A stretch of 64,000 nt of DNA from a virus, in IMG/VR virus record IMGVR_UViG_3300037155_000096; one strand, written 5' to 3'. Below the pieces are notes generated by a model that did no database searches, was not told where the DNA came from, and saw only the letters and a program-made list of their open reading frames with translations. Both the position numbers and the translations under genes were made by a program. Every line of letters begins with the position of its first letter. Position 1 is the first letter of the stretch. Positions 20,243-55,408 of this stretch are shown one piece after another.

Positions 20243-20254
20243 CTTAACCTTCCT

Positions 20255-21762: not shown

Positions 21763-21800
21763 TATACCTTGAAACTGTTATTTTTGTGTTATGAGGTATA

Positions 21801-23442: not shown

Positions 23443-23444
23443 GC

Positions 23445-24764: not shown

Positions 24765-24789
24765 AACGATTGCTCTTGTGTTACGGGAA

Positions 24790-24836
24790 CAAACTTAATA
24801 AAATCATTGGGACAAAAGCAAATATAAACGTCCACA
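24790..24836 (-). promoter_or_regulatory. rep promoter (TTG-N21-TAAGTTTG) with adjacent iteron
   Basis: TAnnTTTG at 24790..24797, TTG at 24819..24821, iteron tataaacgtccaca 24823..24836. Confidence 0.55.
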
Positions 24837-24889
24837 TTTGTCAAGTGTCCGCATTATAACAACATTGCAGTACAATTTTCAGGAATGTT

Positions 24890-35374: not shown

Positions 35375-35788
35375 TTATCTCATCGGATATTCTTTATCGT
35401 ACAATTCAAACTGATACTCATTCGAGATTTTATACGCACTTTTCGTCCCCCAAAACGTTAATCTTTCGAATAGCCAGTTTATCTGCCTCTCGTTCCTGGG
35501 CAGCGGAACCTGCAGGGGACACTGAGTCGCCTTATTAAAACAGCCCTTATGGTCAATAAACAGCGTGACCGGACCTTCATCTTCTCTTTTGCCCAGGAAT
35601 CCATAGATTCCATGACCGGTAATCTTATAGCAGTCATCGCCTTCGGAGACCACATCATAGTTCGCTTTTTTGAGCATGGCCACCATCTCATCGATAGTGA
35701 CTTCTACATTCCGTTTCCTTGGTTCAAACGATTTCGGATCCAATTCAAAATCCACAGCATCCAGATCTTTGCCATTTTTATACATCAC
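35375..35788 (-). CDS. Hypothetical protein
   Basis: Coupled to HD gene. Confidence 0.6.
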   Translation of the reverse strand: MMYKNGKDLDAVDFELDPKSFEPRKRNVEVTIDEMVAMLKKANYDVVSEGDDCYKITGHGIYGFLGKREDEGPVTLFIDHKGCFNKATQCPLQVPLPRNERQINWLFERLTFWGTKSAYKISNEYQFELYDKEYPMR

Positions 35789-36309
35789 GCTGACTCCCTC
35801 ACTTCCAATTCTTTACTCATATACATATCCAGAAGCGCCCACATTTCCTGATGCAGATCTCCGAACTGCAGCATTGCCTTGAATAGCGCATACTGTTTCT
35901 TATACGAGTTGAAAAACTTCTCGTTATGAAACGCCCAACTTCTACGGACATTGGCAATTCTATCAGCAAGTTTCAGCTGAACAGCCTTCTGACATTCCGC
36001 AGTTTTGGTATACGTTCTCACCAGTGACTCCTTCTTGTCCTTTCCAGGCTCATTCGTAACTCGCCATACGATTTCAGAGACTTCATCGCCGAAATACTTG
36101 GCTATCAGCTTCCGAGTCACCTGAGTGTCCTCTACGGCGTCATGGAGCCAGGCAGCAACCAATATCGGTTCGTCCGTTACACCAAATTCGTCCAGAAGGA
36201 TCTCATAAACGTTGTTCAGATGTTCCGAGTAAGGCAACCCATCCCCGTATTTCTGTTTAGCATGGAGCATTTCTGCCACCATTTTAGCATTTTTAATATT
36301 TTCTGTCAT
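35785..36309 (-). CDS. RelA/SpoT-type HD hydrolase (small alarmone hydrolase-like)
   Basis: PYSEHL...V, AWLHDAVEDT, VTN, KLADRIANV. Confidence 0.85.
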   Translation of the reverse strand: MTENIKNAKMVAEMLHAKQKYGDGLPYSEHLNNVYEILLDEFGVTDEPILVAAWLHDAVEDTQVTRKLIAKYFGDEVSEIVWRVTNEPGKDKKESLVRTYTKTAECQKAVQLKLADRIANVRRSWAFHNEKFFNSYKKQYALFKAMLQFGDLHQEMWALLDMYMSKELEVRESA

Positions 36310-37160
36310 ACTACATCCTTTGGATACTCCCGAATCTTTAGATGCTCGGGAAAATCCTCTATATTTCTAATTACTTTATCTTCCCCTGATAATTGCTTAA
36401 CGAATAGCGGCGTCTTGTTCATCTGGCAAGCCTCCCTGATGTCGTTTATCCAACTTACCGGACAATCCCTTCTCGAAGTACCAGATTCGCAGCCGACTAC
36501 CACCCAATCTATGCGCTGTAGCCCGCCGCTTCTGGGGAAATCTTTCGCCATTTTCAGACATCCACCGCACCTGCATAATGTATCGCCCAATGTTTTGGAT
36601 TGCAGGTCGATTCTGGATAACATTGGCTCAATACTTACCCACCTTAAAGCCACCGGCATCTGCATGAGTATCAGAATTCTTTTGTCTGCCATTTCCTGAT
36701 CCTCAGCCGTAACACCGAACCATAAATTCTTCATTCCGGATTTGTACCATGCTTCAAAACTTGAACTTGCAACATGCTTGGTCATCCAATCCGCCAGATA
36801 CGCATAAAACTCCAAAGCTCTCTCAGGTCTTTTCGTAAGCACCTGAAACGTATGCTTCGGACATCTTGCCATCGTAGCATACACTCTGAAAATAAATTCA
36901 AACGGGACGTCCTCGTGAAATAAATCAGACATCGAATTAACAAAAATCTTTCGTGGCTTCTGCCACCTGTAAGGGATCTCCAATTTATCGGTGTGGCACT
37001 TGACATCCGTAAATTTCCTGTCGTCCTTGCCGAACTCGCCGAGCCTTCTTTTGGCATAATTCTCTGCATAGCAGTGTTTACAGCCGGCACTTACCTTGTC
37101 GCAACCAGTAACGGGATTCCAGGAACTGTTAGTCCATGCAATTTCGCTTTTACTTCCCAT
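36306..37160 (-). CDS. DUF5131 (phage Gp37/Gp68) radical-SAM-like protein
   Basis: WNPVTGCDKVSAGCKHCYAE, FVNSMSDLFH, SIEPML, WVVVGCESG. Confidence 0.9.
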   Translation of the reverse strand: MGSKSEIAWTNSSWNPVTGCDKVSAGCKHCYAENYAKRRLGEFGKDDRKFTDVKCHTDKLEIPYRWQKPRKIFVNSMSDLFHEDVPFEFIFRVYATMARCPKHTFQVLTKRPERALEFYAYLADWMTKHVASSSFEAWYKSGMKNLWFGVTAEDQEMADKRILILMQMPVALRWVSIEPMLSRIDLQSKTLGDTLCRCGGCLKMAKDFPRSGGLQRIDWVVVGCESGTSRRDCPVSWINDIREACQMNKTPLFVKQLSGEDKVIRNIEDFPEHLKIREYPKDVV

Positions 37161-37164
37161 TATT

Positions 37165-37728
37165 TTACATGCACTCCTTTATAACTTCGCTTTCAATTTC
37201 TTTCATGGATGTCCACGGAATCATGGTTTCTCCCTGCTGATCTATCAGATAAATCGGAATCTTTAATTCCTGAGCTATTCTGATTTCGCTATCAACGCCA
37301 CCCGACGTATCCCATCCTGGCATGGTTACAATAATCATTTTGCTCGATACGCTTAAATACGCCCGGCAGAAGTTCTCCCAGAACTGCCAATCAGTCGGTA
37401 GAGAATAAGCAAATGCAATCGAGTGTGCATGAGCTATCGGCGAAAATATCGTGTAGCCTTTGTTCATAAGTACCCCAGCTACTCTACTTGCGTCCATCGC
37501 TCGTTTATCCCTGACCATTGAATCCGGATCTGAGTACGGAGAGGACAAATAAATCAAGGGTTTACCGAACTCCTGTTCCAATCCTTTCAGTTTCTCTTCT
37601 TCAAACACAGGCATTATTTTTTTCTCCCCATGAAAATCTTCACGTTGTTCCATTGTAACTGAACAAATGCCACACCGCCGAGCCTTATTAAATCCAAAAG
37701 GTTCACATGGGCAAGGTGGTCCGGGCAC
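37165..37728 (-). CDS. DUF1937 / nucleoside deoxyribosyltransferase-like protein
   Basis: IYLSSPYS, FSPIAHAH, W..SGGV..EI..A; start may be 37614. Confidence 0.75.
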   Translation of the reverse strand: MPGPPCPCEPFGFNKARRCGICSVTMEQREDFHGEKKIMPVFEEEKLKGLEQEFGKPLIYLSSPYSDPDSMVRDKRAMDASRVAGVLMNKGYTIFSPIAHAHSIAFAYSLPTDWQFWENFCRAYLSVSSKMIIVTMPGWDTSGGVDSEIRIAQELKIPIYLIDQQGETMIPWTSMKEIESEVIKECM

Positions 37729-38375: not shown

Positions 38376-38652
38376 GAATAAATATAATAAAAGTAGGTTC
38401 TATTTTACCGACTGTTTAAATGGGGAAAAATGAATATGAGTTGGTTTATATGATAAATTTAGAGTGAAAGGAACAGCCGATGTCACAAGAATGTTCATAT
38501 TTAATCTATAACCCTTTTTATTGTCTAAGGATTGAATTTCGAAGGAATATCAGTTAACTTTATTATAATTATTGACAGTTGTTAGTAAGAATATGAGCGA
38601 CTAAGATTCCAAGTTAATTTTATTAGAGTCATATAATTGTTAATGGATAATT

Positions 38653-39297
38653 ATGAAAAAAATATTATTTAGTGTATTTCCTTTATTCTTCCTTTTTGGC
38701 TGCTCAAGTTATGTTTCAAGGTATTTTTTTAATTATGAGCAAATCGATAATTCAATAAAACATTTAGTTCAAAAAAATGAGATTTATGCAGGGTATAATC
38801 AATATTATGAAGATGATTTAATTAAACTGCACCTTGATTGTGAGCCGATGGGTATTAGGTTTTATCTAATTAACAAAACAAATAATACACTGAATATTAT
38901 ATGGGATAGCGTAAAGGTATATTCAGAATTTCTGAAAAATAAACCAGTTTCAATCATGCACACAAATAAAACTCAGGATAATATTGTAATTCCAGATCCT
39001 TCCGCATTAGATTTTATTGAAAAAAGTACTCTTATAAAATTGAGAGAAGAAGATCGTTTATCAGTTATTAAAACGTCAATTATTTTGGCAAACCACACTT
39101 GGATGGATGAGATTCAGTTCAATCAAAATGATTATTTACTTCCATATCAGTTTAGCAATAAAGATTCACTTAATTATAAATCCAATGGTGTAATTGGTAA
39201 AAAGATTAAATTATTACTGCCTTTGAAAACAAAAGAAGAAATAATCAATTATGCTTTCGTTTTTACAGTGAAAGAATTTCAAATTTTATCAAAATGA
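38653..39297 (+). CDS. Lipoprotein of unknown function
   Basis: Lipobox LFGC; ATGA overlap with pAgo. Confidence 0.75.
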   Translation: MKKILFSVFPLFFLFGCSSYVSRYFFNYEQIDNSIKHLVQKNEIYAGYNQYYEDDLIKLHLDCEPMGIRFYLINKTNNTLNIIWDSVKVYSEFLKNKPVSIMHTNKTQDNIVIPDPSALDFIEKSTLIKLREEDRLSVIKTSIILANHTWMDEIQFNQNDYLLPYQFSNKDSLNYKSNGVIGKKIKLLLPLKTKEEIINYAFVFTVKEFQILSK

Positions 39298-41300
39298 GTG
39301 AATACAGAATCAATAAAGTCAATTTCAAAATTCTGAATCCCAAAATAAGAGTTTGGGTTTCAGGAAACCAGCTACCAGATTTTCAGAAAAGAAGAATTGA
39401 ACTTTTCAAAGAAGTGAATATTCCTGCAACTTTAAGTGAGCAGCCCTACATTTATCTATCGTTTCAATCTCATGTAGATGCTATAGAAGCAGAATTAAAT
39501 CTTGAAACAAAAAAATATTTTCTGAAACCGTATATTGATTTTCTTCTGACGAACTATTTTGAGAATAAGAATTTAACAACACGAAAAACCTTTATACAAA
39601 GCATTCAGATTTGGAATTATATTTCGCAAGACAACAAGAAAAAAACTTATGACCGCTTTTCAATAAGGCAATTGGGAACATTGCACTTGCACAAGTTGGA
39701 GTTACTCATTTCATACGATGGTAAATCACTTGTTTCAAGACTACCTTTGTCTGAAAGAGAGTTTAGATCACCTATCTCAAAATACTTTCAGGGTAATAAA
39801 ATTTATGAGACTAAAAGAACCCCAATTTCAGATACAAGTGAGGCCTTTCCTATTTTAAGTATTCCAATGCGAAAGGAAATGGATATTCCATTTGAAGGAT
39901 TCGCAACTAAGAATACATACCTTGAATATTATAAAAAAATTTCTGCCTTTTACGATATTCACTTGAAAGGGAAAACGATTGCGGACAACATCACTTTCTA
40001 TTCAGAAGCATTTGAGGAGGTTGATGAAATAAAAATAATGAGAGTAAAAAAGGTTTCTAACTACTTAAAATTTAATGGTAACAACGACTACAATATTTAT
40101 AGTGGACTGAAAAATTATGGACCTTATAAGGTACCGCAGACTGACAATCTGCGTTTCATTTTTATATACAAGGCAAATGAAATCCATCGTAAAGCAGCTA
40201 ATCAACTTTACATTGCCTTGAAGAATGGAATAAGCAATTTCCCAGGACTAAAAGATTATGTGAAAGTAAATTTTGAATTGGCACAGGAGAATAAAATTAT
40301 TCTGGAAACAAACGATCCTGCATCCGAATTAGCAGATAAACTTGAACACTATAACAAACATGAAGGATTAAAGTATTTTGCAATCTATCTTACAGACCAC
40401 AAACGATTCGAAGATTTGGAAAATAACGAAGAAGAATATTATAAAGTGAAATATTCATTGCTTCAAAAAGAAATTCTATCTCAATTTATTTATTACAAAA
40501 ATATTGACAGTTCTAGTTTTATATTTCACTTGCCCAACATTGCTGTTGCAATACTCGCTAAGTTGGGAGGTATCCCTTGGAAGTTAGATACAGTTTCTTC
40601 TGCAAAAATGATAGTTGGGTTTGGCGTGAAACGATTAGATGACAATACTTACTTAGGCAACACACTATGTTTTAAAGATGATGGAGAATTTTACAAATTT
40701 GAAACTTATCAGAGAGCAAACATTCAAACAATCGGAGAAGCACTTCGTGATAGTATCAATAATGTGATAAATCAGGAACACTTCACACCTGACAAACTGA
40801 TAATTCATTACTACAAAACTTTGAGTGATGAAGAGGCAGAGGAAATTGAAAATGTTTTGAAGGAAGTCAATTTGAACATTCCTTTTATCGTACTGACTAT
40901 AAACGACACCAAGAGCAAGGACTATTTGTTTTTTGATGTTGCTTCAAAAGATATAATGCCAGTAAGCGGAACAATAATTGAAATAAAAAATAAGACAGAA
41001 TATCTTTTGGCAAACAACGAGAGGCACAGTGAAACACAAATTTATTCAATCAGAAAATTTCCGTTCCCTCTGAAAATAAAAGTGAACAAACCAACCAACA
41101 CACTTTACGATGTGTTTGACATTAAGGAACTGATTGACCAAGTTTATAGTTTTTCAAGAATCTACTGGAAAAGTATTAACCAAGTTAGCTTACCTGTTAC
41201 GATTGCATACTCAAAAATTGTGGCTGACTTGGCAGCACATTTCCCTGAACACCGTTTGCCTGAAAAAGATATTGCTCACTCTAATCTTTGGTTTCTATGA
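39294..41300 (+). CDS. ago: Long prokaryotic Argonaute, catalytically inactive (long-B-like)
   Basis: MID YYKVK...SQ...AKLGGIPW; PIWI IVGFG, IIHYYK, SRIYWKS...LPVTI; tetrad Asp residues absent. Confidence 0.9.
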   Translation: MSEYRINKVNFKILNPKIRVWVSGNQLPDFQKRRIELFKEVNIPATLSEQPYIYLSFQSHVDAIEAELNLETKKYFLKPYIDFLLTNYFENKNLTTRKTFIQSIQIWNYISQDNKKKTYDRFSIRQLGTLHLHKLELLISYDGKSLVSRLPLSEREFRSPISKYFQGNKIYETKRTPISDTSEAFPILSIPMRKEMDIPFEGFATKNTYLEYYKKISAFYDIHLKGKTIADNITFYSEAFEEVDEIKIMRVKKVSNYLKFNGNNDYNIYSGLKNYGPYKVPQTDNLRFIFIYKANEIHRKAANQLYIALKNGISNFPGLKDYVKVNFELAQENKIILETNDPASELADKLEHYNKHEGLKYFAIYLTDHKRFEDLENNEEEYYKVKYSLLQKEILSQFIYYKNIDSSSFIFHLPNIAVAILAKLGGIPWKLDTVSSAKMIVGFGVKRLDDNTYLGNTLCFKDDGEFYKFETYQRANIQTIGEALRDSINNVINQEHFTPDKLIIHYYKTLSDEEAEEIENVLKEVNLNIPFIVLTINDTKSKDYLFFDVASKDIMPVSGTIIEIKNKTEYLLANNERHSETQIYSIRKFPFPLKIKVNKPTNTLYDVFDIKELIDQVYSFSRIYWKSINQVSLPVTIAYSKIVADLAAHFPEHRLPEKDIAHSNLWFL

Positions 41301-42499
41301 ATCTGGTTAAGCTATTTGAAAATACGGTATTCCTATTGGGTGCTGGTGCATCACAAGATGCAGGTTGCCTGATGTCAAGTAGTATGCTTAATGAATTGAA
41401 CAAAGCGATAAACGATATTGCTTCTGATGATGTAGTATATGGGAGTTACAAGGAAGGATTCAAAGAACTTTACAGAGTGATAAAACCTTCCCTAGAATAT
41501 CAGGCAGAACTTAAAAGAATTATTGCGGATAAAAAAGATTTGTATTCACCGAACATTGAAGATTATATTCTAATACTCCGCAAAATACTGAATAAGGATT
41601 TGATAATTCCAGAACCACTTGTTGGAAGTTGGAGTGATAAACTTTTATTATTAGAAATAAAATATACAAATCTATGCAAGCAGTATTTGAATTTTATTTA
41701 TCACTGCGTCATAAAATGGCTAACACCGCCAAACTATAAAGCTGCAACTGATTTGTTGCTTCCTGTAAGAACTTTGCTTGAGCAAACAACTAATGAAGAA
41801 TATTATATCAATTTCTTCACACTGAATTATGATTTAATTTTTGAAAAGGTTTTTAATTCGGCAGAAGCAAAACCATTGAACAATGGTTTCTCAAACAATG
41901 TTTGGGACACTATAAGTTTTGATGTTGAACAAACAAAAATTAACTTGTATAAAATTCACGGTTCTTTGGACTGGTATTCAGAGGAGGATACTACTCATTC
42001 ACTTCCTGACTACGAAATTGCTTTCAATGCACTTCAACCAGATGAGAGAAAACCGCATTTGATTTTAGGATATGAAACAAAATTATTTTCAGTTGACCCA
42101 TTTTTCACCTTGCTACAAAAGTTCATTACAAAATTAAAAGAAGCAAATCTTGTTGTAGTCATCGGATATAGCTTCTTTGATGCTTACTTAAATAACTTGT
42201 TAATAAAGTTTCTGAACAGCAGTGAAAATAAAAAACTTTTTATTGTGGATCCCCACTTTTCTAATCAGGAAAATCCAGCAGAATCATTTACAGAATATTT
42301 GAAACTGATTCAGACAGACACTTCTTCATTGAACATTGACAACTACACAACATTACCATCCTCAAAAGTTTCATTTTTTGCTTCTGAGAATTCTAAAATG
42401 TCTGGAGCAAAGGAATTTTATACAGAGTTTTTTGAGAACAAATGTGAGAAGTTGAAAGCCATTTATGCTGAGTTAGCAAAACAAGATGAACCGTTCTAA
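41297..42499 (+). CDS. SIR2-like NADase effector
   Basis: LLGAGAS, TLNYD, KIHGSLDW, VIGYSF.D; ATG 41297 overlaps pAgo stop. Confidence 0.9.
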   Translation: MNLVKLFENTVFLLGAGASQDAGCLMSSSMLNELNKAINDIASDDVVYGSYKEGFKELYRVIKPSLEYQAELKRIIADKKDLYSPNIEDYILILRKILNKDLIIPEPLVGSWSDKLLLLEIKYTNLCKQYLNFIYHCVIKWLTPPNYKAATDLLLPVRTLLEQTTNEEYYINFFTLNYDLIFEKVFNSAEAKPLNNGFSNNVWDTISFDVEQTKINLYKIHGSLDWYSEEDTTHSLPDYEIAFNALQPDERKPHLILGYETKLFSVDPFFTLLQKFITKLKEANLVVVIGYSFFDAYLNNLLIKFLNSSENKKLFIVDPHFSNQENPAESFTEYLKLIQTDTSSLNIDNYTTLPSSKVSFFASENSKMSGAKEFYTEFFENKCEKLKAIYAELAKQDEPF

Positions 42500-42506
42500 T
42501 GCCAAC

Positions 42507-42677: not shown

Positions 42678-44120
42678 TTAGTTTATTTGATTTTCTTGAA
42701 GAAAAAACGAAAAATTATATGGCGGTTGATTTTGAGAATAAAGTTTCAGTAACTCCAGTTTCTCAGAATGGGAAATCTCGGTTAAGCGATAAAGTTCATT
42801 AAAGGTCAGTGTAATGTGGTTAGATAATTCAATGTTTCGAGGATATACTTTGCACACTCGCATTAAAATATCAAACCGTGAAGAAAAATACCAATTAGCA
42901 CAAATTGCTTGTAATGTTTCTTCGAATACCAATAGTACAGGATGGATCTTATATTTTATATCGGGATTTAATGAAGCAACTGAATAAAAGGTTTTGGGTT
43001 CATTGTTAATCCTGTCTATCTTTTTTACTTGTTGCATAACGCCTTCTTTCAAAACGAACCTATCATTCAACTTCTGATAAAATTGTACAATATCATCTTC
43101 ATATAATGTTGCGAGGTTAAGGCATGTAGACTTTATCTCAAATAAATAGATATCAGTACCTTGGACTAAACCCATATCCCCATACTCATAGGATTTTGTA
43201 GCTATTTTAATCTCCTTTATTGAGTCAGAGATAAAAATACTTCTTATTAAGTCTTTTATCACAGGCTCAACAATATCAATTCCAAATTTTGGTTTGAACT
43301 CAATTGGAAAGGATTGGAATAATTCTGAATAAACTAATCGGAATGTCATGTCAAATAGGTTATTAAAATCTGTTGGAATTAAATCATTATTTATTTTTAT
43401 CAAAGGATATTTTTTCATGAAAAATAAATCTTGTGGAGGGTTAATCTTCTGCTTTCTTAGTGTCCATTCCTTATGTAGATCATCCTCTTTTATTGCAGCG
43501 AATCTTTCTAATAGATTAAAAATAGTTTTACTCGAATGTTTTTTTAATTCGTCACAAAGATCATCTAGCTTAATTCCATATTTATCGAAAATAATCGAAT
43601 TATAGGAAGAATCTTCAAGAGCTTTTATTTTCTCATTGAATTTATTGAAGAGATCAAAAGTCCCTCTTAAATCTGAATTCACCTGGGTAAATTGTATTGA
43701 TTTAATACTACTATATAATAATTTTTTCCCTGTGGATTGATTTTTTTGTGTGAGTTCTAAATCCGCTAATACTTGATTTATAAAAATAAACAATAAAAAT
43801 GTAAGGTAAGGATTGAATTCTTTAGCTGCCGAAAAAGAATCAGGTGGAATTGAACTTAAATATTGAAAGCATGCATTCATTGCTTGCTTATGGAATACGA
43901 TTATATTTCTATTTATTGGGATATTTAGAATCTCATATTGGATTTCCAAAATATCTTCAAGATCTCCTGCTACTGCAAACTTATTAGCTAAATGACCAAG
44001 AAAACGAACCCATTGTTCCCTGCTATTGCTCATTAAGATATTATTAATATTGTCATGACAGCACTGAACACTAACATTTTTCCCAAATTCATCATGATAG
44101 GTGTAATATTTTTTTATCAT
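42678..44120 (-). CDS. Hypothetical protein with C-terminal PD-(D/E)xK-like motif
   Basis: EYGDMGLV...LFEIKS. Confidence 0.6.
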   Translation of the reverse strand: MIKKYYTYHDEFGKNVSVQCCHDNINNILMSNSREQWVRFLGHLANKFAVAGDLEDILEIQYEILNIPINRNIIVFHKQAMNACFQYLSSIPPDSFSAAKEFNPYLTFLLFIFINQVLADLELTQKNQSTGKKLLYSSIKSIQFTQVNSDLRGTFDLFNKFNEKIKALEDSSYNSIIFDKYGIKLDDLCDELKKHSSKTIFNLLERFAAIKEDDLHKEWTLRKQKINPPQDLFFMKKYPLIKINNDLIPTDFNNLFDMTFRLVYSELFQSFPIEFKPKFGIDIVEPVIKDLIRSIFISDSIKEIKIATKSYEYGDMGLVQGTDIYLFEIKSTCLNLATLYEDDIVQFYQKLNDRFVLKEGVMQQVKKIDRINNEPKTFYSVASLNPDIKYKIHPVLLVFEETLQAICANWYFSSRFDILMRVCKVYPRNIELSNHITLTFNELYRLTEISHSEKLELLKLYSQNQPPYNFSFFLQENQIN

Positions 44121-44340: not shown

Positions 44341-44736
44341 TTAATAATCCCAAAAAACAGTTACTGCAAGATTCGGGTATTTATCAAATGTAAACTGCTT
44401 TGGTATATAGATATCAACAATTGCTTTGTTTTTGTTCCAATCAACAGTATCATACCTATATGTATGGGAATGATCCGAAGTGAATTTCATATTTTCTTTA
44501 ATAGGTTGTAATGCTCTTGCTGGGTTAATCCCGAGCTCTATATTTGTCCAATACTGTATAGTATCATGTTTACCTTTCGCTATTCTAACAGTAATAAATT
44601 TAGGTGTTGGTGTGGGTACTCTCCATTTAAGTATGTAGACATAATCAGTTCTTTTTCCAACAGTAATAGTCCACTTATAAGTATTATCAGTATCACTATC
44701 ATATTTTAACTGGTAGGACAATTCATTTGGCATCAT
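44341..44736 (-). CDS. Hypothetical beta-rich protein
   Basis: 131 aa ORF with aaaggata RBS. Confidence 0.55.
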   Translation of the reverse strand: MMPNELSYQLKYDSDTDNTYKWTITVGKRTDYVYILKWRVPTPTPKFITVRIAKGKHDTIQYWTNIELGINPARALQPIKENMKFTSDHSHTYRYDTVDWNKNKAIVDIYIPKQFTFDKYPNLAVTVFWDY

Positions 44737-45136: not shown

Positions 45137-45865
45137 GTGAAGAAATTTAAAACTATACATACAAGTAGAACAATGATGTTCGCTGAACTGTCAAAGGTGA
45201 TGGACTATTCTATCGACAGTGATAATTTTTTTGAATCCCTAGGTCATAATGTTACCGGTAAGAAATCCAATTCAGGTGTTGAAAAAACTGCTAATTATTT
45301 AAAAAGATTGTATGGCTTTGACATCAACAATCAATCATTTATTGCATTCAAATATTTTTGGAAAATAACAGAGACATCAGATAAACCGTTACTTGCATTT
45401 ATTTATGCTATTAACTTTGATGATCTTCTTGCAGAAAGTTTAAATGTAATTCATAAAACTAAAGCTGATGAAAAAGCAACAATAGAATCTTTTGAAGAAA
45501 ATATTGAAAAGTACCACCCCAACCAATATTCGGAAAAAACTAGACGATCAATGGCTCAAAATATTGCAAGTTCTTGGAAACAAGCTGGTTTTATTGAAGG
45601 TAAAGTAAAAAATATCAGGACTCAACCAGAGATAAAGTATTTGGTAGCTTGTTTTGCATTTTTATTGGCTTATTTAAAGGGCGACAGGGGCGAGTTCATT
45701 TGGAATAGTATCGGAGTAAAGGCTGTTTGCTTTAATGAAAACCGGGCTAGAGAATTGGCAATTGAATGTGCAAAAAGAGATTTAATGCAATATCAGTTTG
45801 CCGGTAGCGTAACAGTCATCTCATTTAATAACTTAATAAATAAAATCGGAATAGATGCCATCTAA
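45137..45865 (+). CDS. brxA: BREX BrxA-like protein
   Basis: First gene of BREX operon; RSMAQNIASSWKQAGF. Confidence 0.6.
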   Translation: MKKFKTIHTSRTMMFAELSKVMDYSIDSDNFFESLGHNVTGKKSNSGVEKTANYLKRLYGFDINNQSFIAFKYFWKITETSDKPLLAFIYAINFDDLLAESLNVIHKTKADEKATIESFEENIEKYHPNQYSEKTRRSMAQNIASSWKQAGFIEGKVKNIRTQPEIKYLVACFAFLLAYLKGDRGEFIWNSIGVKAVCFNENRARELAIECAKRDLMQYQFAGSVTVISFNNLINKIGIDAI

Positions 45866-46400
45866 AATAGATCAACTTTTAGAAGCCTTTGAAAAGGTAG
45901 TAAAAGAACCCTGGTCATCTGCTTTGTCAGGCCAGGAACGGATTTGGTTTTTGGTATATGACCCAGCAGAGCAACGCAAAGTTGATTTGCGAATGGGTGA
46001 TTTTGAAACCGCTACCTTGAAATCAGGGAAAAAATGGAATAGCATATCACTGAAACTTTGCTTCCCTAGCTGGATGGCTAATCATGAATATAAAGAGGAT
46101 TATTTCAGCAACCCTGAGTATATAGTGGACCAGTTGGAAGCTGAGTTTATTCCTTATGCAATTCAGTATTTAAAGAATGAGTTAAATAAAATTGAACAAG
46201 ATCAAGATACACTTATTGCCATTAAAGATGTATCTGCCCTATTTGGTTTTGTACGACTTTCTGAAATACTCAAGAGTTGCGACAAAGAATTTAAAGGACG
46301 TATGCTCATCTTTTTTCCGGGTGAATTTGAACACAACCATTACCGTCTGCTGGATGCCAGAGATGGATGGGATTATTTAGCAAGACCTATAACACTATAA
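45855..46400 (+). CDS. brxB: BREX BrxB (DUF1788-like)
   Basis: FLVYDPAEQ...LFGFVRLS...LIFFPG...YRLLD...YLA. Confidence 0.8.
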   Translation: MPSKIDQLLEAFEKVVKEPWSSALSGQERIWFLVYDPAEQRKVDLRMGDFETATLKSGKKWNSISLKLCFPSWMANHEYKEDYFSNPEYIVDQLEAEFIPYAIQYLKNELNKIEQDQDTLIAIKDVSALFGFVRLSEILKSCDKEFKGRMLIFFPGEFEHNHYRLLDARDGWDYLARPITL

Positions 46401-46410
46401 AAGAAGTAAA

Positions 46411-49400
46411 ATGAAAAATAAAGAACTTTTTACCCTGAATCCAGAGCAAGTAAACCTTAAGAACGAAGGTGTTGCAAAGATCAGGACCATCAATGAAAAG
46501 GAAGATCTTTCAATTGCAGAATATGAATTAAAAACCTTTGTCTGTGAAGGAGAATACCATGATGGTTTGAAAAAAATGTTGGAATACTATCTTCAAAATT
46601 ATAACAGTCCTGAACAACCAGGATTTTGGGTTAGTGGATTTTATGGTAGTGGAAAATCGCATCTTGTTAAAATGGCTAGTTACCTGTGGGATGATTTTGA
46701 GTTCCCAAATGGTAATACTGCTAGAAATATTAAGCCTTTACCACAGGACATTCAGGATTTATTTGTTGAAATAAATTTTAAGCAAAAAATTCAGGGTAAG
46801 CTATCAATTGCAGGTACTCTTCGTGATTTTCCATCTAAGGATATTCGTTATTCATTTTTGCAGATATTTCTTAATTCATTTGGTTTACCCCAACAATACC
46901 ATCATTTCAAGTTTGTTTACTGGGCAAAGAAAGAGGGAATTTATGATGGATTAAAAGCCTTGGTTGAAGCTGCAGGAAAAGACTTTAAAAAGGAAATTGA
47001 AAACCTGTTTGTTTCATCTACACTTTCCAAAGCAGTGCTTGCACTCATGCCTGAAATGGCCGAAAATGAGATGAAAATAAAAGAACTTTTTAAAGCTCAA
47101 TTTCCAAGAGTGGAAACTATTGGACGCGACGATTTTGTAAATACTATCCGAGAAGAAATACTTCCGCTTGCTTGTGGTGATAAAATTCCTTGTACTATTA
47201 TCATATTGGATGAGGTGCAACAGTTCATTGGCCAGGATAGCAACTTGGCTTTTGATGTCCAGCTATTAGCAGAAGATCTGTGCTCAAGATTTGATGGTAA
47301 ATTCCTTCTAGTAGGCACAGGTCAAAGTGCTTTAACGGATACTCCAATACTGCAAAAATTAATGGCTCGGTTTAGAGTTCCAATTCAACTTACAGATACA
47401 GATATTCAGAAAGTAATTAGAAAAACAATTTTAGATAAAAAGCCTACTGCTGTTCCGATTCTTAAAATTAAACTAGATGGCTCCTCGGGTGAAATATCAA
47501 GAAGTTTAGAAGGGACAATATTTGGTTACATTGCAGAGGACAAAAACACCTTAATAGCCGATTATCCCTTATTGCCATCAACACGTAAATTATGGAAAAA
47601 GTTATTACAGGTAATTGATACTGCTGGCACGATGGGTCAACTCAGAAATCAATTAAGAATTGTTGATGATAGTCTAAAATCTATTGCCAATTTAGAAGTT
47701 GGCCAAATTGTTCCGGCTGATTTTATGTTTTTTCAAAATACTACGCAATTAATGCAGGCGGGTTTGTTGTCAAATGATACCAATAATCTTATTCAGGGAA
47801 GAAAAGCCAGGAGTGGAGATGTTGAAATTGAAGGCAGAATATTAAGCGCAGTTTTCCTTTTGGACCAAATCATTTCCAATATTCCGGATACTGGTTTAAA
47901 ATCAAACGAAAATACAATTGCCGATTTGTTGATCGATAATCTGAATGTGAACTCTGATTCTTTTCGTATCAGGATAAAAGGCTTGATTAAAAAGTTGGTT
48001 GAGGAAAAGGCACTAATGCCCATCAGTGACGAGTACAAACTACAAACAAAAATTGGCGCTGAATGGGAACAGGAGTTCACCAAACAATACATAAAACTAA
48101 ACAACTCTGGGGACGATCAGATTCAAAGTTTGCGAAGAGAAAAGATAGTGGCTCTCTTTAAAGACAAAACCAAAGCCATAAGTGTTAAACAGGGAACCTC
48201 CCGAATGGTACGTGAATTTGAACTATGGGACAAAGACACTTTGCCTAATACCGAACATAAACTAAATCTATGGATTCGTGATGGTTGGTTTGAGAATGAA
48301 ACGACTGTGTTAAATGAAATCCGTGCTGCTGGAAATAATGCATCACTAGCTTATGCCTTTGTTAGAAAATTCCGTGACTCTGAACTAAGAACAGAAATCA
48401 TTAAATATTTAGCTGCCGGTTTGGCTATTAATGCGATGGGATTGCCTTCAACACCTGAAGGCGAACAAGCCAAAAAAAGTATGGAAACCCGTCAGTTGCA
48501 GGCAAAAAATGTCATGCAGGAATTGGTAGAAAAAATATGCGATGAAACCACTGTTTTTCTTGCAGGTGGTAACACCGTGCAAGTCGGTACATTAAAAGAC
48601 AATATTCAAGAAGCCCTCAACAGCATTGCTGACCGTCAGTTCCCAGACTTTAAGGCCAAGGCAGACTTTTTAAATTGGGGTCAGGCCTTAACTAAAGCCT
48701 TAGCTGGTAATCCCGATGCATTGAATGTTATCAGTTATAATGGAGATGTTGACAAACATCCGGTATCTGTTGAAATATTGCGGTTTATAGGTAACTCAAC
48801 TAAAACTGGCAAAGACATTCGCAGCCAATTTATGAAAGCTACATACGGATGGAGTCAGGATGCTATTGATACAATCCTGATAATGTTAAAAAACATGCAA
48901 TATATTTCCACCAACGAAACCGATTTAAAAGTTGCCAAAATTAACCAGGCTACCTTTAAAAAAGAAATACACATATTGGGAGCCAAAGAAAAAATCACTA
49001 TACGCAAACTCTTTCAGGATGCTGGTATAACTTGCCCTCCAAACCATGAAATATTTCCTTATTCCAACGAATACCTAGACAGGCTCAAAACCCTTGCTGC
49101 TAAAGTAAGTGGTGAAGCTCCTCGTCCAGAGACCATCAATATAGATTTTATTAAAGATATTGAAAATAAAGAAGGGAATGAAAGACTATTGGAAATACTC
49201 CAACAAACGGTTGACTTACAGGCAAAGTTTAGTGATTGGAGCGCAAAAGCAAAACTGATAGGCTCAAGAGAGCTTTTATGGAATGTACTGATTGAGTTAG
49301 TCAACCATGCCCCTGACGAACCTGAAATAGAGCCAATAAAAACGGAAACCAATGCCATTCGGGATAACAGATTATTACTTCAGGAACCTGATCCTATTCA

Positions 49401-49845
49401 ACCTATATTAAATGCGATAACTGAAAAGTTAGTAGGTATTCTGAACAACAGAAAGCAACAGTACAATACTCTATACGATCAAAAAATGTTTGACCTGCAA
49501 GCAAATGAATATTTCAAAAAACTAATCCCCGACCAGAAGCATAGCATTTTGGCAAAACACCAATTACTTATAAAGCCCGAAATAAAAGTCTTGGACGCAC
49601 ATGCTCTACTTAATCAATTACAAAAAGCATCCTTATATACCTGGGATACTAAAATAGCCGCCTTGTCTGGTCAGTTTCAATCGGCTTTGGAAGATGCTAT
49701 ATTATTGTCTGCACCACAGGCAAAAACATATAGTCTTCCTCGTAAAACCATCAATAACCAAGCAGACATTGATGCTTATGTGTCTGATTTAAAATCCAAT
49801 TTAGAAGTCCTATTAAAAGAATCAAGTTCAATAATATTAAAGTAA
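46411..49845 (+). CDS. brxC: BREX P-loop ATPase BrxC
   Basis: WVSGFYGSGKSH, ILDEVQQF, VGTGQS, RF...LTDTD. Confidence 0.9.
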   Translation: MKNKELFTLNPEQVNLKNEGVAKIRTINEKEDLSIAEYELKTFVCEGEYHDGLKKMLEYYLQNYNSPEQPGFWVSGFYGSGKSHLVKMASYLWDDFEFPNGNTARNIKPLPQDIQDLFVEINFKQKIQGKLSIAGTLRDFPSKDIRYSFLQIFLNSFGLPQQYHHFKFVYWAKKEGIYDGLKALVEAAGKDFKKEIENLFVSSTLSKAVLALMPEMAENEMKIKELFKAQFPRVETIGRDDFVNTIREEILPLACGDKIPCTIIILDEVQQFIGQDSNLAFDVQLLAEDLCSRFDGKFLLVGTGQSALTDTPILQKLMARFRVPIQLTDTDIQKVIRKTILDKKPTAVPILKIKLDGSSGEISRSLEGTIFGYIAEDKNTLIADYPLLPSTRKLWKKLLQVIDTAGTMGQLRNQLRIVDDSLKSIANLEVGQIVPADFMFFQNTTQLMQAGLLSNDTNNLIQGRKARSGDVEIEGRILSAVFLLDQIISNIPDTGLKSNENTIADLLIDNLNVNSDSFRIRIKGLIKKLVEEKALMPISDEYKLQTKIGAEWEQEFTKQYIKLNNSGDDQIQSLRREKIVALFKDKTKAISVKQGTSRMVREFELWDKDTLPNTEHKLNLWIRDGWFENETTVLNEIRAAGNNASLAYAFVRKFRDSELRTEIIKYLAAGLAINAMGLPSTPEGEQAKKSMETRQLQAKNVMQELVEKICDETTVFLAGGNTVQVGTLKDNIQEALNSIADRQFPDFKAKADFLNWGQALTKALAGNPDALNVISYNGDVDKHPVSVEILRFIGNSTKTGKDIRSQFMKATYGWSQDAIDTILIMLKNMQYISTNETDLKVAKINQATFKKEIHILGAKEKITIRKLFQDAGITCPPNHEIFPYSNEYLDRLKTLAAKVSGEAPRPETINIDFIKDIENKEGNERLLEILQQTVDLQAKFSDWSAKAKLIGSRELLWNVLIELVNHAPDEPEIEPIKTETNAIRDNRLLLQEPDPIQPILNAITEKLVGILNNRKQQYNTLYDQKMFDLQANEYFKKLIPDQKHSILAKHQLLIKPEIKVLDAHALLNQLQKASLYTWDTKIAALSGQFQSALEDAILLSAPQAKTYSLPRKTINNQADIDAYVSDLKSNLEVLLKESSSIILK

Positions 49846-52800
49846 TGGCAGTACTTACACAACAACAACGGAATACATTAGAATCAGCGGTAAAGCAAGC
49901 AAGGAAGATTGCTGAAGTGGGAGCTTTCAATGCCTTACATGGATTGGCTGTAGACAGTAACGATCCATTTGCTCATATGACAAGTGAACAAAGAAACCTT
50001 CGCAATAGTTTATGGGCAAAAGCTAAGCTGTTGGGCGACAAGCCTGATAAACTCGGTAATAGAAGAATCGAACACCTAACATATGAACTTGCATATGAAA
50101 CTTGGCATAAAATGCTATTCGCAAAGTTTCTGGAATCAAATAGTTTGCTGATGCACTCTGATGGAGTTGCAGTAACAATGGAAGATTGTGAAGAGTTGGC
50201 AAGGGACGAAGGCTTTATAGATAAATGGGATGCCGCGGCAAGTTATGCTTCTAAAATGCTACCTGCCATTTTTAGAACAGAAGATCCTCTAATGCAAATG
50301 GCGTTTGCAACAGATGAAAGAATAAAACTCGAAGAAATTATTGATGGGTTAGAAAACCAAATATTTATTGCTGATGATTCTTTGGGTTGGGTATATCAGT
50401 TTTGGCAAAGCGAAGCAAAGGCTGCTATTAATGCCAGTAATGATAAAATTGATGGAGAAAAACTTCCTGCTGTTACACAGTTATTCACAGAACCTTATAT
50501 GGTTCACTTTCTTATTGACAATACATTGGGAGCTTGGTGGGTAAGCCGTAATCCAAACGTAAGGCCACCAGTTAAATTTGAATTCTTAAGATTGTTGGAC
50601 GATGGCACTCCTGCTGCAGGAAAGTTTGATGGATGGCCATCTGTGACAGCTGAAGTAACTTCCTTAGATCCGTGTATGGGATCTGGTCATTTTGTGGTAT
50701 CTCTCTTTAATGTGTTTGCCTCATTGCGCATGCTTGAGGAGGGTATAACTAAAGAGGAAGCAACTGATAAAGTAATTGCAGAAAATTTGCATGGGCTTGA
50801 ATTGGATGCTCGATGTACTCAAATTGCAGCTTTTAATCTGGCTTTAACCGCTTGGAAATTCTGTGGGCATTACAAAGAACTGCCAGAAATGAATCTTGCG
50901 TGTAGTGGAATTTCACCAAAAGGCAAGAAAGAAGATTGGGTAAAGTTAGTCGGTAAAGTTTCTGATCCTGTATTGAAAGCACGAATGGAAAATGGAATGA
51001 AAGTACTTTATGATCATTTCCAGTTAGCACCCGAATTGGGAAGCCTATTAGATCCAACAATAATAAAATCAGATGTATTCATAGCGAACTTTGAGGATCT
51101 TCAACCAATATTGAAAAAGGCATTAATTGAAGAAGAAGACGAAGATCAAATAGAACGAGGTGTAATAGCAGCTGGAATAGCAAAAGCTGGTCAAATTTTA
51201 ACTAATCATTATACTTTACAAATTACCAATGTGCCATATTTGGGAAGTAACAAGATGAGTGCAGATTTATACTCTTATGCAGAAAAGAATTTTCCAAATT
51301 CTAAGTCCGATTTAGCCTGTATCTTCATAGAAAGATGTTTAAAACAATTAAATCCTTCTGGCACATTCTCTTTTGTTACTCCTCAAAATTGGATGCAAAT
51401 TAGAAATTACGAAAAGCTAAGGGGACAGATAATAAATAATTATAACATCGATTTAATCTGTAATTTAGGCAAAAAATCGTTTAGAACTTCGATGTATGAT
51501 TTTAATGTCTGTTTAGTTGAGATTTCCAACTTTTATGAGGATAAGAACATTATTGCTTGCATAAATATCATCGAAAATTCGTTATCGGAAGAAAAACCGA
51601 CATTTATTAAAACAAATACTATTTCAAAAATTAGTCAAAAGGGTTTTTTATCCAATCCTTTGAAAAGAATTTTATTAAGCGAACATTCTGATACAGATTT
51701 GATTTCAAAATTTTATGATGTAGCTAAGGGGAGTGTTTCAGGAGATAAGCATCATTATATTCATAATTTCTGGGAAGTAAATGATCATATAAACCATAAA
51801 TATTGGTTAAATACTCCCACTGAAAAAGATTTCTTTGGTGGGAGAGAATCAATTATATATTGGAATAATTCTAACATATCGAATGAGATAGGATTTGCAC
51901 TCAGAGGAGAAAAGGTTTTTAGTCGACATGGATTTGCAATATCAAAAGTGAATAGAAGAGCTTTTACATTTTATCCGGGTATTTTATTTGACGATAATCT
52001 GGCCGTTATCTGTCCTAAGAATGGAAATAAACTTGAACCTCTTTATGAATTTATTCTCTCAGGTGAATTTAGTGAAGCAATTTCTAAATTGGATTCTAAA
52101 TTAGGGATTACTGCTGGAACTTTTGGACAGGTAAATTTCGATTTAGAGTATTGGCAAAAAATCGCTCAAGAAAAACACCCCAATGGTATCCCCAAACCTT
52201 ACAGCGATGATCCTACACAATGGCTGTTTCATGGACATCCAATAAAATCAACTAGCCCGGTACAAGTTTTTTTAGCTAGAATACTTGGATACAGATGGCC
52301 TGCTGAGGATGATGCTGAAATGGAGTTGGCAGATGAAGCCAGAGAGTTGATAATATCCGTAAAAGCATTTGACCATTTAACGGATGACGATGGTATTTTC
52401 TGTATTCCTTCTGTAAATGCAGAACAAGCCGGCGTAGATAGATTGCGTTCATATTTGCAAGAAGTTTATGCAAGTGAATGGAATAATCAAACCATAATAC
52501 AGTTGTTGGCTAAAGAAGGAGCAACTTCTTCTAATTTAGAAGACTGGCTTCGCAAAGAATTTTTTATTCAACACTGCAAAGTGTTTCAAAATAGGCCATT
52601 CATCTGGCAAATATGGGATGGTCGCAATGATGGCTTTTCAGCATTGGTCAATTACCACAAATTAGATAAAGACAATCTATCAAAACTTATTTATACATAC
52701 TTGGGCGATTGGATAAGGATGTGCGAAGCCAAAAAAAAATCCGGAGAAAGCGGTGCAGAAGGTTTGCTCAGTGCAGCTCTAAAATTAAAAGAGAAACTGG

Positions 52801-53078
52801 AATCAATTCTTGCAGGCGAAAAACCATACGACATTTTTGTGCGTTGGAAACCACTAGAACAACAACCCATCGGTTGGGAACCAGATTTGAATGATGGTGT
52901 TCGTATAAACATCCGTCCGTTTATGGAAGCAGATGTATTACGAAAAAAACCAAACATTAAATGGGGAATAGATAGAGGTAAAAACCCTCTTGGTTCATAT
53001 TGGGGTGAAGTAAGGAATAATGATGAACATTTGAACCTAGAACAAAAACGGGCTGTAAGAGAAAAAGCTAAGAAGTAA
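49845..53078 (+). CDS. pglX: BREX adenine methyltransferase PglX
   Basis: TQLFTEPYMV, DPCMGSGHF, TNVPYL, DLNDGVRINI. Confidence 0.9.
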   Translation: MAVLTQQQRNTLESAVKQARKIAEVGAFNALHGLAVDSNDPFAHMTSEQRNLRNSLWAKAKLLGDKPDKLGNRRIEHLTYELAYETWHKMLFAKFLESNSLLMHSDGVAVTMEDCEELARDEGFIDKWDAAASYASKMLPAIFRTEDPLMQMAFATDERIKLEEIIDGLENQIFIADDSLGWVYQFWQSEAKAAINASNDKIDGEKLPAVTQLFTEPYMVHFLIDNTLGAWWVSRNPNVRPPVKFEFLRLLDDGTPAAGKFDGWPSVTAEVTSLDPCMGSGHFVVSLFNVFASLRMLEEGITKEEATDKVIAENLHGLELDARCTQIAAFNLALTAWKFCGHYKELPEMNLACSGISPKGKKEDWVKLVGKVSDPVLKARMENGMKVLYDHFQLAPELGSLLDPTIIKSDVFIANFEDLQPILKKALIEEEDEDQIERGVIAAGIAKAGQILTNHYTLQITNVPYLGSNKMSADLYSYAEKNFPNSKSDLACIFIERCLKQLNPSGTFSFVTPQNWMQIRNYEKLRGQIINNYNIDLICNLGKKSFRTSMYDFNVCLVEISNFYEDKNIIACINIIENSLSEEKPTFIKTNTISKISQKGFLSNPLKRILLSEHSDTDLISKFYDVAKGSVSGDKHHYIHNFWEVNDHINHKYWLNTPTEKDFFGGRESIIYWNNSNISNEIGFALRGEKVFSRHGFAISKVNRRAFTFYPGILFDDNLAVICPKNGNKLEPLYEFILSGEFSEAISKLDSKLGITAGTFGQVNFDLEYWQKIAQEKHPNGIPKPYSDDPTQWLFHGHPIKSTSPVQVFLARILGYRWPAEDDAEMELADEARELIISVKAFDHLTDDDGIFCIPSVNAEQAGVDRLRSYLQEVYASEWNNQTIIQLLAKEGATSSNLEDWLRKEFFIQHCKVFQNRPFIWQIWDGRNDGFSALVNYHKLDKDNLSKLIYTYLGDWIRMCEAKKKSGESGAEGLLSAALKLKEKLESILAGEKPYDIFVRWKPLEQQPIGWEPDLNDGVRINIRPFMEADVLRKKPNIKWGIDRGKNPLGSYWGEVRNNDEHLNLEQKRAVREKAKK

Positions 53079-53080
53079 TA

Positions 53081-55396: not shown

Positions 55397-55408
55397 GAAA
55401 TAAACCTT

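What the first reader, a model, noticed from the sequence alone, without database searches (positions are those of the whole stretch)
38653..42499. Three-gene coupled operon: lipoprotein + inactive long pAgo + SIR2
Seen: both junctions are ATGA overlaps (39294-97, 41297-300). The pAgo keeps MID guide-binding residues but lacks the catalytic aspartates, and the SIR2 keeps GAGAS/NYD/HG. Known: long-B pAgos pair with separate effectors, including Sir2-like proteins, for abortive infection. A translationally coupled lipoprotein is not a component I know of, and could link envelope sensing to the system (inference).
Basis: partly seen in the sequence, partly recalled or inferred. Interest (0 to 1): 0.72.

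Follow-up and report, generated by a model that had tools for sequence, protein, structure and literature searches.

The report
Argonaute–SIR2 defence pair beside unrelated lipoprotein
The inactive Argonaute and SIR2 genes are an ordinary member of the known two-gene BPAS abortive-infection system, and the lipoprotein gene in front of them is an unrelated neighbour, not a new third component.

Summary
The three ORFs and both ATGA overlaps are real. Genes 2 and 3 (39294-42499) are a catalytically dead long pAgo with an intact MID 5'-phosphate pocket, plus a SIR2_2 effector with intact GAGAS, NYD and HG motifs. This is a clear member of the known BPAS (long-B pAgo + Sir2) system, which depletes NAD+ after guide-directed recognition of invading DNA.

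The lipoprotein is not part of it.
- Window DNA matches six related pAgo-SIR2 loci only from the pAgo ATG to the SIR2 stop.
- It matches lipoprotein loci only up to the lipoprotein's last codon.
- No lipoprotein lies beside any other close cassette (five other contexts: Eco57I-like methylase, McrBC, IS200, type I HsdS, MazF) or beside four more distant pAgo-SIR2 loci.
- None of seven lipoprotein homologues (56-96% identical) lies beside a pAgo or SIR2.
- The only locus with the trio is a near-identical copy of this same locus.
- The pAgo-SIR2 ATGA is conserved in every cassette. The lipoprotein-pAgo ATGA follows from the pAgo's invariant ATGAGT start.
- The lipoprotein has no cytoplasmic part, and its GC content differs from the cassette's.

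The pair sits in a low-GC defence island next to a complete type 1 BREX system, on a replicon with rep, parB and phage-type genes. The scan's only earlier notes are on this same stretch. Interest is low.

The parts
39294..41300 (+). Catalytically inactive long (long-B type) prokaryotic Argonaute, 668 aa. It is the sensor of the BPAS system.
   Evidence: PADLOC pAgo PDLC02385, 3.9e-180, full length. Pfam Piwi. AF2 model with pLDDT 88. It aligns over residues 2-668 to RsAgo (Z 30.4, rmsd 4.4, 603 aligned), and similarly to CbAgo and TtAgo. Residues 246-668 align to AfAgo (Z 36.4, rmsd 2.8, 380 aligned). The catalytic tetrad is replaced. The MID pocket Y382/K386/Q397/K423 is invariant.
41297..42499 (+). 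SIR2_2-domain effector (bAgaS-like), 400 aa, a predicted NADase.
   Evidence: PADLOC Aga_SIR2 PDLC02414 (2.4e-57) and PDLC02408 'Class II' (1.4e-55). Pfam SIR2_2. GAGAS, NYD and HG are invariant across 8 cassettes.
41297..41300 (+). Conserved ATGA stop/start overlap between pAgo and SIR2. This is the genuine coupling of the two-gene cassette.
   Evidence: An ATGA overlap in a near-identical sequence context (TGGTTT-yT-ATGA-A) is present in all the other cassette sequences examined (L001, L002, L023/24, L025, L028, L029/30) and in the duplicate L027.
38653..39297 (+). Lipoprotein of an uncharacterised family of about 200-aa proteins. It is an adjacent resident gene, not a component of the system, and may supply the promoter for the cassette in this lineage.
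   Evidence: The lipobox Cys17 is invariant. It has no Pfam, PADLOC, PHROG or NCBIfam family. 376 representative relatives were found at E<=1e-3. The AF2 model (pLDDT 90) is a generic beta-sandwich with best Z 6.9. Seven homologue contexts lack pAgo and SIR2. GC is 26% against 32-33% for the cassette.
39294..39297 (+). Lineage-specific ATGA junction where two independently conserved modules abut.
   Evidence: By blastn, cassette homology starts at 39291-39293 (39272 and 39288 for the two most divergent loci, L003 and L002) and lipoprotein-locus homology ends at 39277-39294. Every cassette starts ATGAG(T/C)GA, so the TGA belongs to the pAgo's own start. Lipoprotein homologues end at the same LSK or LSKQ position.

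Best explanation

Proposed mechanism:
- The pAgo cannot cut. It loads small 5'-phosphorylated guides in its intact MID pocket and uses them to recognise complementary DNA of an invading plasmid or phage.
- Target binding releases or activates the bound SIR2_2 partner.
- The SIR2 partner hydrolyses NAD+, which stops or kills the cell and removes the invader from the population.

What is shown here: the domain content, the inactive PIWI domain, the intact MID and SIR2 motifs, the conserved pAgo-SIR2 stop/start overlap, and the position in a defence island. What is inferred from the characterised GbBPAS system: guide type, complex formation and NAD+ depletion.

The lipoprotein gene 38653-39297 is a separate, independently mobile gene. 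The cassette came to lie exactly at its stop codon. With no intergenic space, the cassette is probably transcribed by read-through from the lipoprotein promoter (inference). That is transcriptional hitch-hiking, not a functional partnership.
For: Identity of the pair:
- pAgo and Aga_SIR2 PADLOC and Pfam hits.
- Full-length Ago fold, with AfAgo and RsAgo (both long-B) as the nearest solved relatives.
- Catalytic tetrad lost and MID pocket invariant.
- SIR2 motifs invariant.
- pAgo-SIR2 ATGA overlap conserved in all cassettes.
- The published BPAS system has the same architecture. GbAgaS co-purifies with GbAgo and depletes NAD+ when a CloDF13-origin plasmid is present (PMC10620215, read).

Lipoprotein not a component:
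- Nucleotide homology to six related pAgo-SIR2 loci (five contexts) starts at or a few bases before the pAgo ATG and stops at the SIR2 stop. Homology to lipoprotein loci ends at the lipoprotein's last codons.
- No lipoprotein match in L001-L003 or L023-L025 by tblastn. The gene lists of L028-L030 show upstream genes identified as type I R-M genes.
- No lipoprotein homologue anywhere in the three genomes that hold the closest cassettes (single-protein query).
- No hit of the lipoprotein family profile within 1.5 kb of any of 16 more distant Bacteroidota pAgo loci. Five of these (L031 is L001 again) have SIR2 downstream.
- Seven lipoprotein homologues, including a 96% identical one, have other neighbours.
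- The only other trio (L027) is the same locus at about 100% identity with identical flanks.
- In the type I R-M context the cassette is just as tight against HsdS: a 1-nt TAATG overlap in L025 and 9 nt in L029. It lies 3 nt after a methylase gene in L001.
- GC and GC3 differ between the lipoprotein (26% / 21%) and the pAgo and SIR2 genes (32-33% / 29-31%).
- The mature lipoprotein is a single exported beta-sandwich with no membrane-spanning or cytoplasmic part. The pAgo and SIR2 sequences show no N-terminal signal peptide on reading.
Against: - No experiment was possible. NAD+ depletion, guide loading and defence are inferred from one characterised homologue, and the SIR2 here is only distantly related to any solved structure.
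- No formal phylogeny places this pAgo in the long-B clade.
- Co-transcription with the lipoprotein is likely, so a lineage-specific functional link cannot be strictly excluded.
- Absence of the lipoprotein was tested within 0.6-6 kb flanks, and in only three whole genomes.
- Three lipoprotein homologues (P0012-P0014) were not looked up.
Confidence: 0.88

Rival explanations
1. One reading: a three-component system in which the translationally coupled lipoprotein senses envelope events and relays them to pAgo-SIR2.
For: A 4-nt ATGA overlap with no intergenic space. The arrangement is stable in two metagenome samples.
Against: Co-occurrence fails in both directions. The overlap follows from the pAgo's invariant ATGAGT start. 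The mature lipoprotein has no transmembrane or cytoplasmic segment that could reach cytoplasmic proteins. GC content differs. L027 is the same locus, not an independent case.
Confidence: 0.03
2. The lipoprotein is an independent accessory or defence gene, for example a superinfection-exclusion lipoprotein of the mobile element. It would be co-expressed with BPAS from one promoter, so the operon stacks two unrelated defence layers.
For: The gene lies in a low-GC defence island on a replicon with rep, parB and phage-type genes. Several homologues sit in variable regions with toxin-antitoxin genes, an integrase or AbiGi. Even the 96% identical homologue has different neighbours, so the gene moves on its own. 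Phage lipoproteins such as T5 Llp and phi80 Cor are known exclusion factors (my knowledge, not tested here).
Against: It matches no PADLOC or PHROG family. Other homologues lie among ordinary chromosomal genes such as T9SS cargo, TonB receptors and sigma-54 regulators. The fold is a generic beta-sandwich with no functional lead.
Confidence: 0.08
3. The pAgo-SIR2 pair serves the mobile element rather than the cell, for example by excluding competing plasmids or phages or by acting as an addiction module. It would use the same NAD+-depleting biochemistry.
For: The window carries rep, ParB-like, DNA-ligase and phage-family genes upstream. GbAgaS alone is toxic and is held in check by its pAgo (PMC10620215).
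Against: Related cassettes sit mostly next to chromosomal-type R-M systems. The biochemistry would be the same, so this is a difference of beneficiary, not of mechanism. Whether the 185-kb contig is a phage, a plasmid or a chromosome fragment was not settled here.
Confidence: 0.1

Closest known systems
[quoted passage not shown] 2023, PMC10620215
   Same: A full-length but catalytically dead pAgo is followed in the same operon by a separate SIR2_2-domain protein with conserved NAD-site residues. It is a two-gene cassette located in a defence island.
   Different: The host is different: an AT-rich uncultured bacterium or mobile element whose closest relatives by these genes are Ignavibacteria and Bacteroidota MAGs. 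The pAgo is short for a long pAgo (668 aa against 777 for RsAgo) and probably has a reduced PAZ region. No function has been measured.
AfAgo (Archaeoglobus fulgidus Af1318) and RsAgo (Rhodobacter sphaeroides), solved long-B pAgos
   Same: They are the nearest solved relatives by sequence (AfAgo 4e-19, RsAgo 8e-11) and by fold (Z 36.4 and 30.4). They have the same MID pocket residues and an inactive PIWI domain.
   Different: AfAgo is split from its N-L1-L2 part, and RsAgo works without a dedicated effector. Here the N lobe is fused and a SIR2 effector follows.
SPARSA (short pAgo + Sir2-APAZ)
   Same: An inactive pAgo senses the invader and a Sir2 domain depletes NAD+.
   Different: SPARSA uses a short pAgo (MID-PIWI only), and its Sir2 is fused to an APAZ domain that stands in for the N lobe. 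Here the pAgo has its own N lobe, and the SIR2 belongs to the SIR2_2 / Aga_SIR2 'Class II' family.

Membership tests
BPAS (long-B pAgo + Sir2) | Full-length Argonaute fold (N lobe + MID + PIWI), not a short pAgo | tested here: met
   The AF2 model (pLDDT 88) aligns over residues 2-668 to RsAgo (Z 30.4, rmsd 4.4, 603 aligned), and likewise to CbAgo and TtAgo.
BPAS (long-B pAgo + Sir2) | PIWI catalytic DEDX tetrad lost | tested here: met
   hhalign against TtAgo gives D478->G444, D546->Y506 and E512 in a gap. The fourth position reads S640/K641 by motif comparison. The alignment probability is low because the profiles are shallow, but the motifs (GFGV, HYYK) match those of the inactive AfAgo.
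BPAS (long-B pAgo + Sir2) | MID 5'-phosphate pocket (Y-K-Q-K) retained | tested here: met
   Y382, K386, Q397 and K423 align to the AfAgo pocket positions (the residue numbers of AfAgo are from my memory of Ma et al. 2005). They are invariant in 33 homologues.
BPAS (long-B pAgo + Sir2) | A separate SIR2_2-domain protein encoded directly downstream in the same operon | tested here: met
   Pfam SIR2_2 and PADLOC Aga_SIR2 hits. The ATGA overlap is conserved in all cassettes.
BPAS (long-B pAgo + Sir2) | SIR2 NAD-site residues intact (the Asn equivalent to GbAgaS N155, and the His) | tested here: inconclusive
   N177 (NYD) and H221 (HG) are invariant in 8 cassettes. No GbAgaS sequence was at hand, so equivalence to N155 rests on motif position only.
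BPAS (long-B pAgo + Sir2) | Phylogenetic placement of the pAgo in the long-B clade | not tested
   No tree was built. The nearest solved sequences, AfAgo and RsAgo, are long-B (PMC10104839).
BPAS (long-B pAgo + Sir2) | Invader-triggered NAD+ depletion and cell death | not testable with these tools
   Needs expression and an NAD+ assay.
Proposed three-gene lipoprotein-pAgo-SIR2 system | Lipoprotein conserved next to homologous pAgo-SIR2 pairs | tested here: not met
   None of five other close cassette contexts and none of four further distant pAgo-SIR2 loci has it. Seven lipoprotein homologues were looked up; none lies beside pAgo or SIR2.
Bacterial lipoprotein (Sec/SPII substrate) | N-terminal signal peptide ending in a lipobox with an invariant Cys | tested here: met
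   The N-terminus reads MKK, then a hydrophobic stretch, then LFGC. Cys17 is invariant in 45 aligned family members. One member matches Pfam LPAM_1.

The most novel reading that the evidence does not exclude
In this one lineage the lipoprotein gene may have been recruited as more than a neighbour. It would supply the promoter for a cassette that appears to have none of its own. It might also act as an envelope-level exclusion factor co-expressed with BPAS on a phage- or plasmid-like element. More generally, this pAgo-SIR2 cassette may spread as a compact module that docks flush against the 3' end of whatever co-directional gene is there (lipoprotein, HsdS, methylase).
Probability: 0.1. Interest if true: 0.4.

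Novelty: new member of a known kind. Interest (0 to 1): 0.14.

Why it matters
The main value is negative. An apparent three-gene 'coupled operon' turns out to be a known two-gene defence cassette placed against an unrelated gene, so no new envelope-sensing Argonaute system should be claimed. A minor positive point is that homology ends exactly at the coding boundaries, and that the cassette repeatedly sits flush against different upstream genes. This shows how a compact defence module is shuffled between defence islands and probably borrows transcription from its neighbours. The locus also adds an AT-rich BPAS variant from an Ignavibacteria/Bacteroidota-type source, next to BREX, that could be used for comparative biochemistry.

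Tried and rejected
- Searches of the window's own genome and its relatives were impossible because no genome is held.
- The first accession tried for the TtAgo reference was not in the collection. The RefSeq record worked.
- Flanking direct or inverted repeats that might mark a cassette recombination site: only short chance-level matches were found.
- Promoter and terminator scans gave counts no higher than in shuffled sequence and no terminator between the genes.
- Function of the lipoprotein: no Pfam, PADLOC, PHROG or NCBIfam match. Foldseek against PDB gave nothing at E<=1e-3. VIA-align gave only generic beta-sandwiches with Z<=6.9. The ESM Atlas gave only unnamed Bacteroidota clusters.
- Complex prediction was not run. 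The report does not claim that the lipoprotein binds anything, and pAgo + SIR2 together exceed the size limit.
- A literature search for a pAgo-lipoprotein link found nothing relevant.
Full report
**Observation.** Three co-directional ORFs lie at 38653-39297 (214 aa), 39294-41300 (668 aa) and 41297-42499 (400 aa). Both junctions are ATGA stop/start overlaps, at 39294-39297 and 41297-41300. The ORF lister offers a TTG at 41288 for the third gene. Eight related genes all begin at the ATG inside the ATGA, so that ATG is the start.

**The three proteins.**
- ORF1 begins MKK, followed by a hydrophobic stretch and LFGC. This is a signal peptide with a lipobox. Its Cys17 is invariant in 12 close and 45 wider relatives. 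It matches no family in Pfam, PADLOC, PHROGs or NCBIfam.
- ORF2 matches Pfam Piwi (1.1e-16) and PADLOC pAgo model PDLC02385 end to end (3.9e-180).
- ORF3 matches Pfam SIR2_2 and the PADLOC Argonaute-associated SIR2 models (2.4e-57 and 1.4e-55, the latter labelled Class II).

**The Argonaute.**
- By sequence its nearest solved relatives are AfAgo and RsAgo, both long-B pAgos (PMC10104839).
- An AlphaFold model built on 33 homologues (pLDDT 88, pTM 0.83) aligns over nearly its whole length to long Argonautes: RsAgo (Z 30.4, rmsd 4.4, 603 residues aligned), CbAgo (Z 32.0) and TtAgo (Z 30.6).
- Residues 246-668 align best to AfAgo MID-PIWI (Z 36.4, rmsd 2.8, 380 aligned). It is therefore a long pAgo, not a short one. 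At 668 aa it probably has a reduced PAZ region.
- I fetched TtAgo from plasmid pTT27 and aligned it to a profile of the close relatives. TtAgo D478 falls on G444 (GFGV), D546 on Y506 (HYYK), and the glutamate finger E512 in a gap. The last catalytic position falls in IAYSKIVA, at S640/K641, by motif comparison.
- The hhalign probability is low because both profiles are shallow. The same substituted motifs appear in the inactive AfAgo alignment.
- The four MID residues that bind the guide 5' phosphate in AfAgo align to Y382, K386, Q397 and K423. All four are invariant in 33 homologues down to 24% identity.

**The SIR2.** G15AGAS19, N177YD179 and H221G222 are invariant in eight cassettes that are 67-88% identical overall. 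The only solved structure found by sequence is a distant SIR2-like protein (4.3e-05).

**What is known.** Long-B pAgos with a separate SIR2_2 protein were named BPAS by Song et al. (PMC10620215). In their GbBPAS system:
- The Sir2 protein alone is toxic and is held in check by the pAgo, with which it co-purifies.
- A CloDF13-origin plasmid triggers NAD+ depletion and cell death.
- An N155A change in the Sir2 domain abolishes this.

Genes 2 and 3 of the finding have exactly this architecture. Neither that paper nor the Ryazansky survey mentions a lipoprotein. A full-text search found no pAgo-lipoprotein link.

**Is the lipoprotein part of the system? From the pAgo side.**
- Scans of representative genomes and metagenomes, and look-ups of the closest database homologues, gave related pAgo-SIR2 cassettes at 74-90% pAgo identity.
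- None has a lipoprotein homologue in its flanks. tblastn shows this for L001-L003 and L023-L025. Gene lists and Pfam show it for L028-L030.
- The upstream genes in the five other contexts are:
  - Eco57I-like methyltransferases (L001)
  - McrBC (L002)
  - an IS200 transposase (L003, where the pAgo is frameshifted)
  - a MazF toxin and small ORFs (L023/L024)
  - a type I HsdS (L025, L028, L029/L030)
- The three whole genomes holding L001-L003 have no lipoprotein homologue anywhere with this query.
- In a 401-genome sample of the phylum of L001 (Bacteroidota, by the title of its record), five loci have a SIR2 homologue next to the pAgo. One of them is L001 again.
- A profile HMM of the lipoprotein family finds nothing within 1.5 kb of any of the 16 pAgo loci from that sample.
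- The single other locus with the trio (L027) has a pAgo about 100% identical to the window's. It also has the same genes on both sides, from the HD-domain gene to BrxC. It is the same locus sampled again, not an independent case.

**From the lipoprotein side.**
- Only 13 close relatives exist among 5.8 billion proteins.
- The neighbourhoods of seven of them (56-96% identical) contain no pAgo or SIR2.
- Even the 96% identical one has a different gene on each side.
- A profile search finds 376 more distant representatives, mostly lipoproteins of about 200 aa, so this is a wider uncharacterised family.
- Its predicted fold (pLDDT 90) is a generic immunoglobulin-like beta-sandwich, and no solved structure stands out. 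Foldseek gives nothing at E<=1e-3. The best VIA-align Z is 6.9, within the range that tool reports as typical for models without a clear relative. The ESM Atlas returns only unnamed Bacteroidota clusters.

**The junction.**
- By blastn, window DNA is homologous to the related cassettes from 39291-39293 (39272 and 39288 for the two most divergent loci) to 42499-42500. That is the pAgo ATG to the SIR2 stop.
- It is homologous to the lipoprotein loci from about 38603-38653 to 39277-39294, that is up to the lipoprotein's last codons. Two independently conserved modules therefore meet exactly at the ATGA.
- Every cassette begins ATGAG(T/C)GA (Met-Ser-Glu/Asp), so the TGA is part of the pAgo's own first two codons. 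Any upstream ORF in that frame would end there.
- The lipoprotein ends at its native C-terminus, LSK; its homologues end LSK or LSKQ.
- The pAgo-SIR2 ATGA, in contrast, is present in every cassette.
- Tight packing against the upstream gene is not special to the lipoprotein. HsdS overlaps the pAgo start by one base in L025 and ends 9 nt before it in L029. A methylase gene ends 3 nt before it in L001.
- The cassette thus seems to carry little or no upstream DNA of its own and is probably expressed by read-through from whatever gene lies before it. This step is inferred; I could not get RNA data.
- No flanking repeats mark a recombination site.

**Other arguments.**
- GC and GC3 are 26% and 21% for the lipoprotein gene and 32-33% and 29-31% for the pAgo and SIR2 genes. 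The three genes just upstream of the island are 44-45% GC, and the first 34 kb of the window is 42%.
- The mature lipoprotein is one exported domain with no membrane-spanning or cytoplasmic segment. Reading the pAgo and SIR2 sequences shows no N-terminal signal peptide.
- A direct signal from the envelope to the cytoplasmic pair would need a relay that is not encoded here.

**Context.**
- The pair lies in a low-GC island. After two unassigned minus-strand genes, the island continues with a complete type 1 BREX system (BrxA, BrxB, BrxC, PglX, PglZ, BrxL; 45137-57454). A PDC-M38A / PD-Lambda-5_A-like gene and a nuclease-like gene follow.
- Upstream are phage-family genes (DUF5131, DUF1937, an HD-domain gene), a DNA ligase, a replication initiator-like gene and a ParB-like gene.
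- The window's own pAgo is recorded on a 185-kb contig. Earlier first-stage notes call that contig a phage-like genome with a plasmid replicon; I checked this only in part.

**Verdict.** The pAgo-SIR2 part is a new member of the known BPAS kind. The claim of a lipoprotein as a third component is not supported: the gene is an unrelated neighbour, at most a promoter donor. Confidence in this reading is about 0.88. The residual possibilities are a lineage-specific recruitment of the lipoprotein, or an independent exclusion function for it. Both are testable by the deletion and expression experiments listed. Interest is low.

Noticed in passing
window 45137-57454: A complete type 1 BREX system (BrxA, BrxB, BrxC, PglX, PglZ, BrxL). 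All six proteins have strong full-length PADLOC hits. It lies 2.6 kb downstream of the pAgo-SIR2 pair in the same low-GC island.
   Followed up: partly
window 57526-59332: Two overlapping genes directly after brxL. The first is PDC-M38A / PD-Lambda-5_A-like (1.5e-48). The second has a weak methyl-directed restriction enzyme hit (1.2e-05). They may be a type IV-like add-on to BREX.
   Followed up: partly
window 42678-44120 (-) and 44341-44736 (-): A 480-aa and a 131-aa protein sit between BPAS and BREX. Neither matches Pfam, PADLOC or NCBIfam, and the 480-aa protein matches no PHROG. They are low in GC (29.5% for the larger one) and are candidate unknown defence genes of the island.
   Followed up: partly
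window 16905-25000 and 35785-37728: The backbone upstream of the island carries an ATP-dependent DNA ligase, a replication initiator-like gene, a ParB-like gene, and phage-family genes (DUF5131, DUF1937, HD). Its GC is 42-45% against 26-38% in the island. The 185-kb contig may be a phage-plasmid-like element that carries BPAS and BREX.
   Followed up: partly
L025:697-701, L028:1820-1996, L029:3653-4771: In one sub-lineage the pAgo-SIR2 cassette sits directly behind a type I R-M specificity gene (hsdS) with a conserved C-terminus, AFK(G/V)(E/D)L. In L025 the two overlap by 1 nt (TAATG). In L028 only a 55-aa ORF with that same C-terminus lies between an HsdM-HsdS-like ORF and the pAgo gene.
   Followed up: partly
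L003:6001-8013: The pAgo of the Ignavibacteria MAG is split over several frames while its SIR2 partner is intact. This is either a decaying pAgo, which would leave a toxic SIR2 unchecked, or long-read assembly errors.
   Followed up: no
L004:5243-5848, L005:2694-3299 and L006:4142-4747: The 68% identical lipoprotein homologue is preceded by a 201-aa gene of unknown family and followed by DUF4145 and zinc-ribbon genes; in L004 the stretch also holds integrase and AbiGi genes. The lipoprotein family may favour variable or accessory regions.
   Followed up: no
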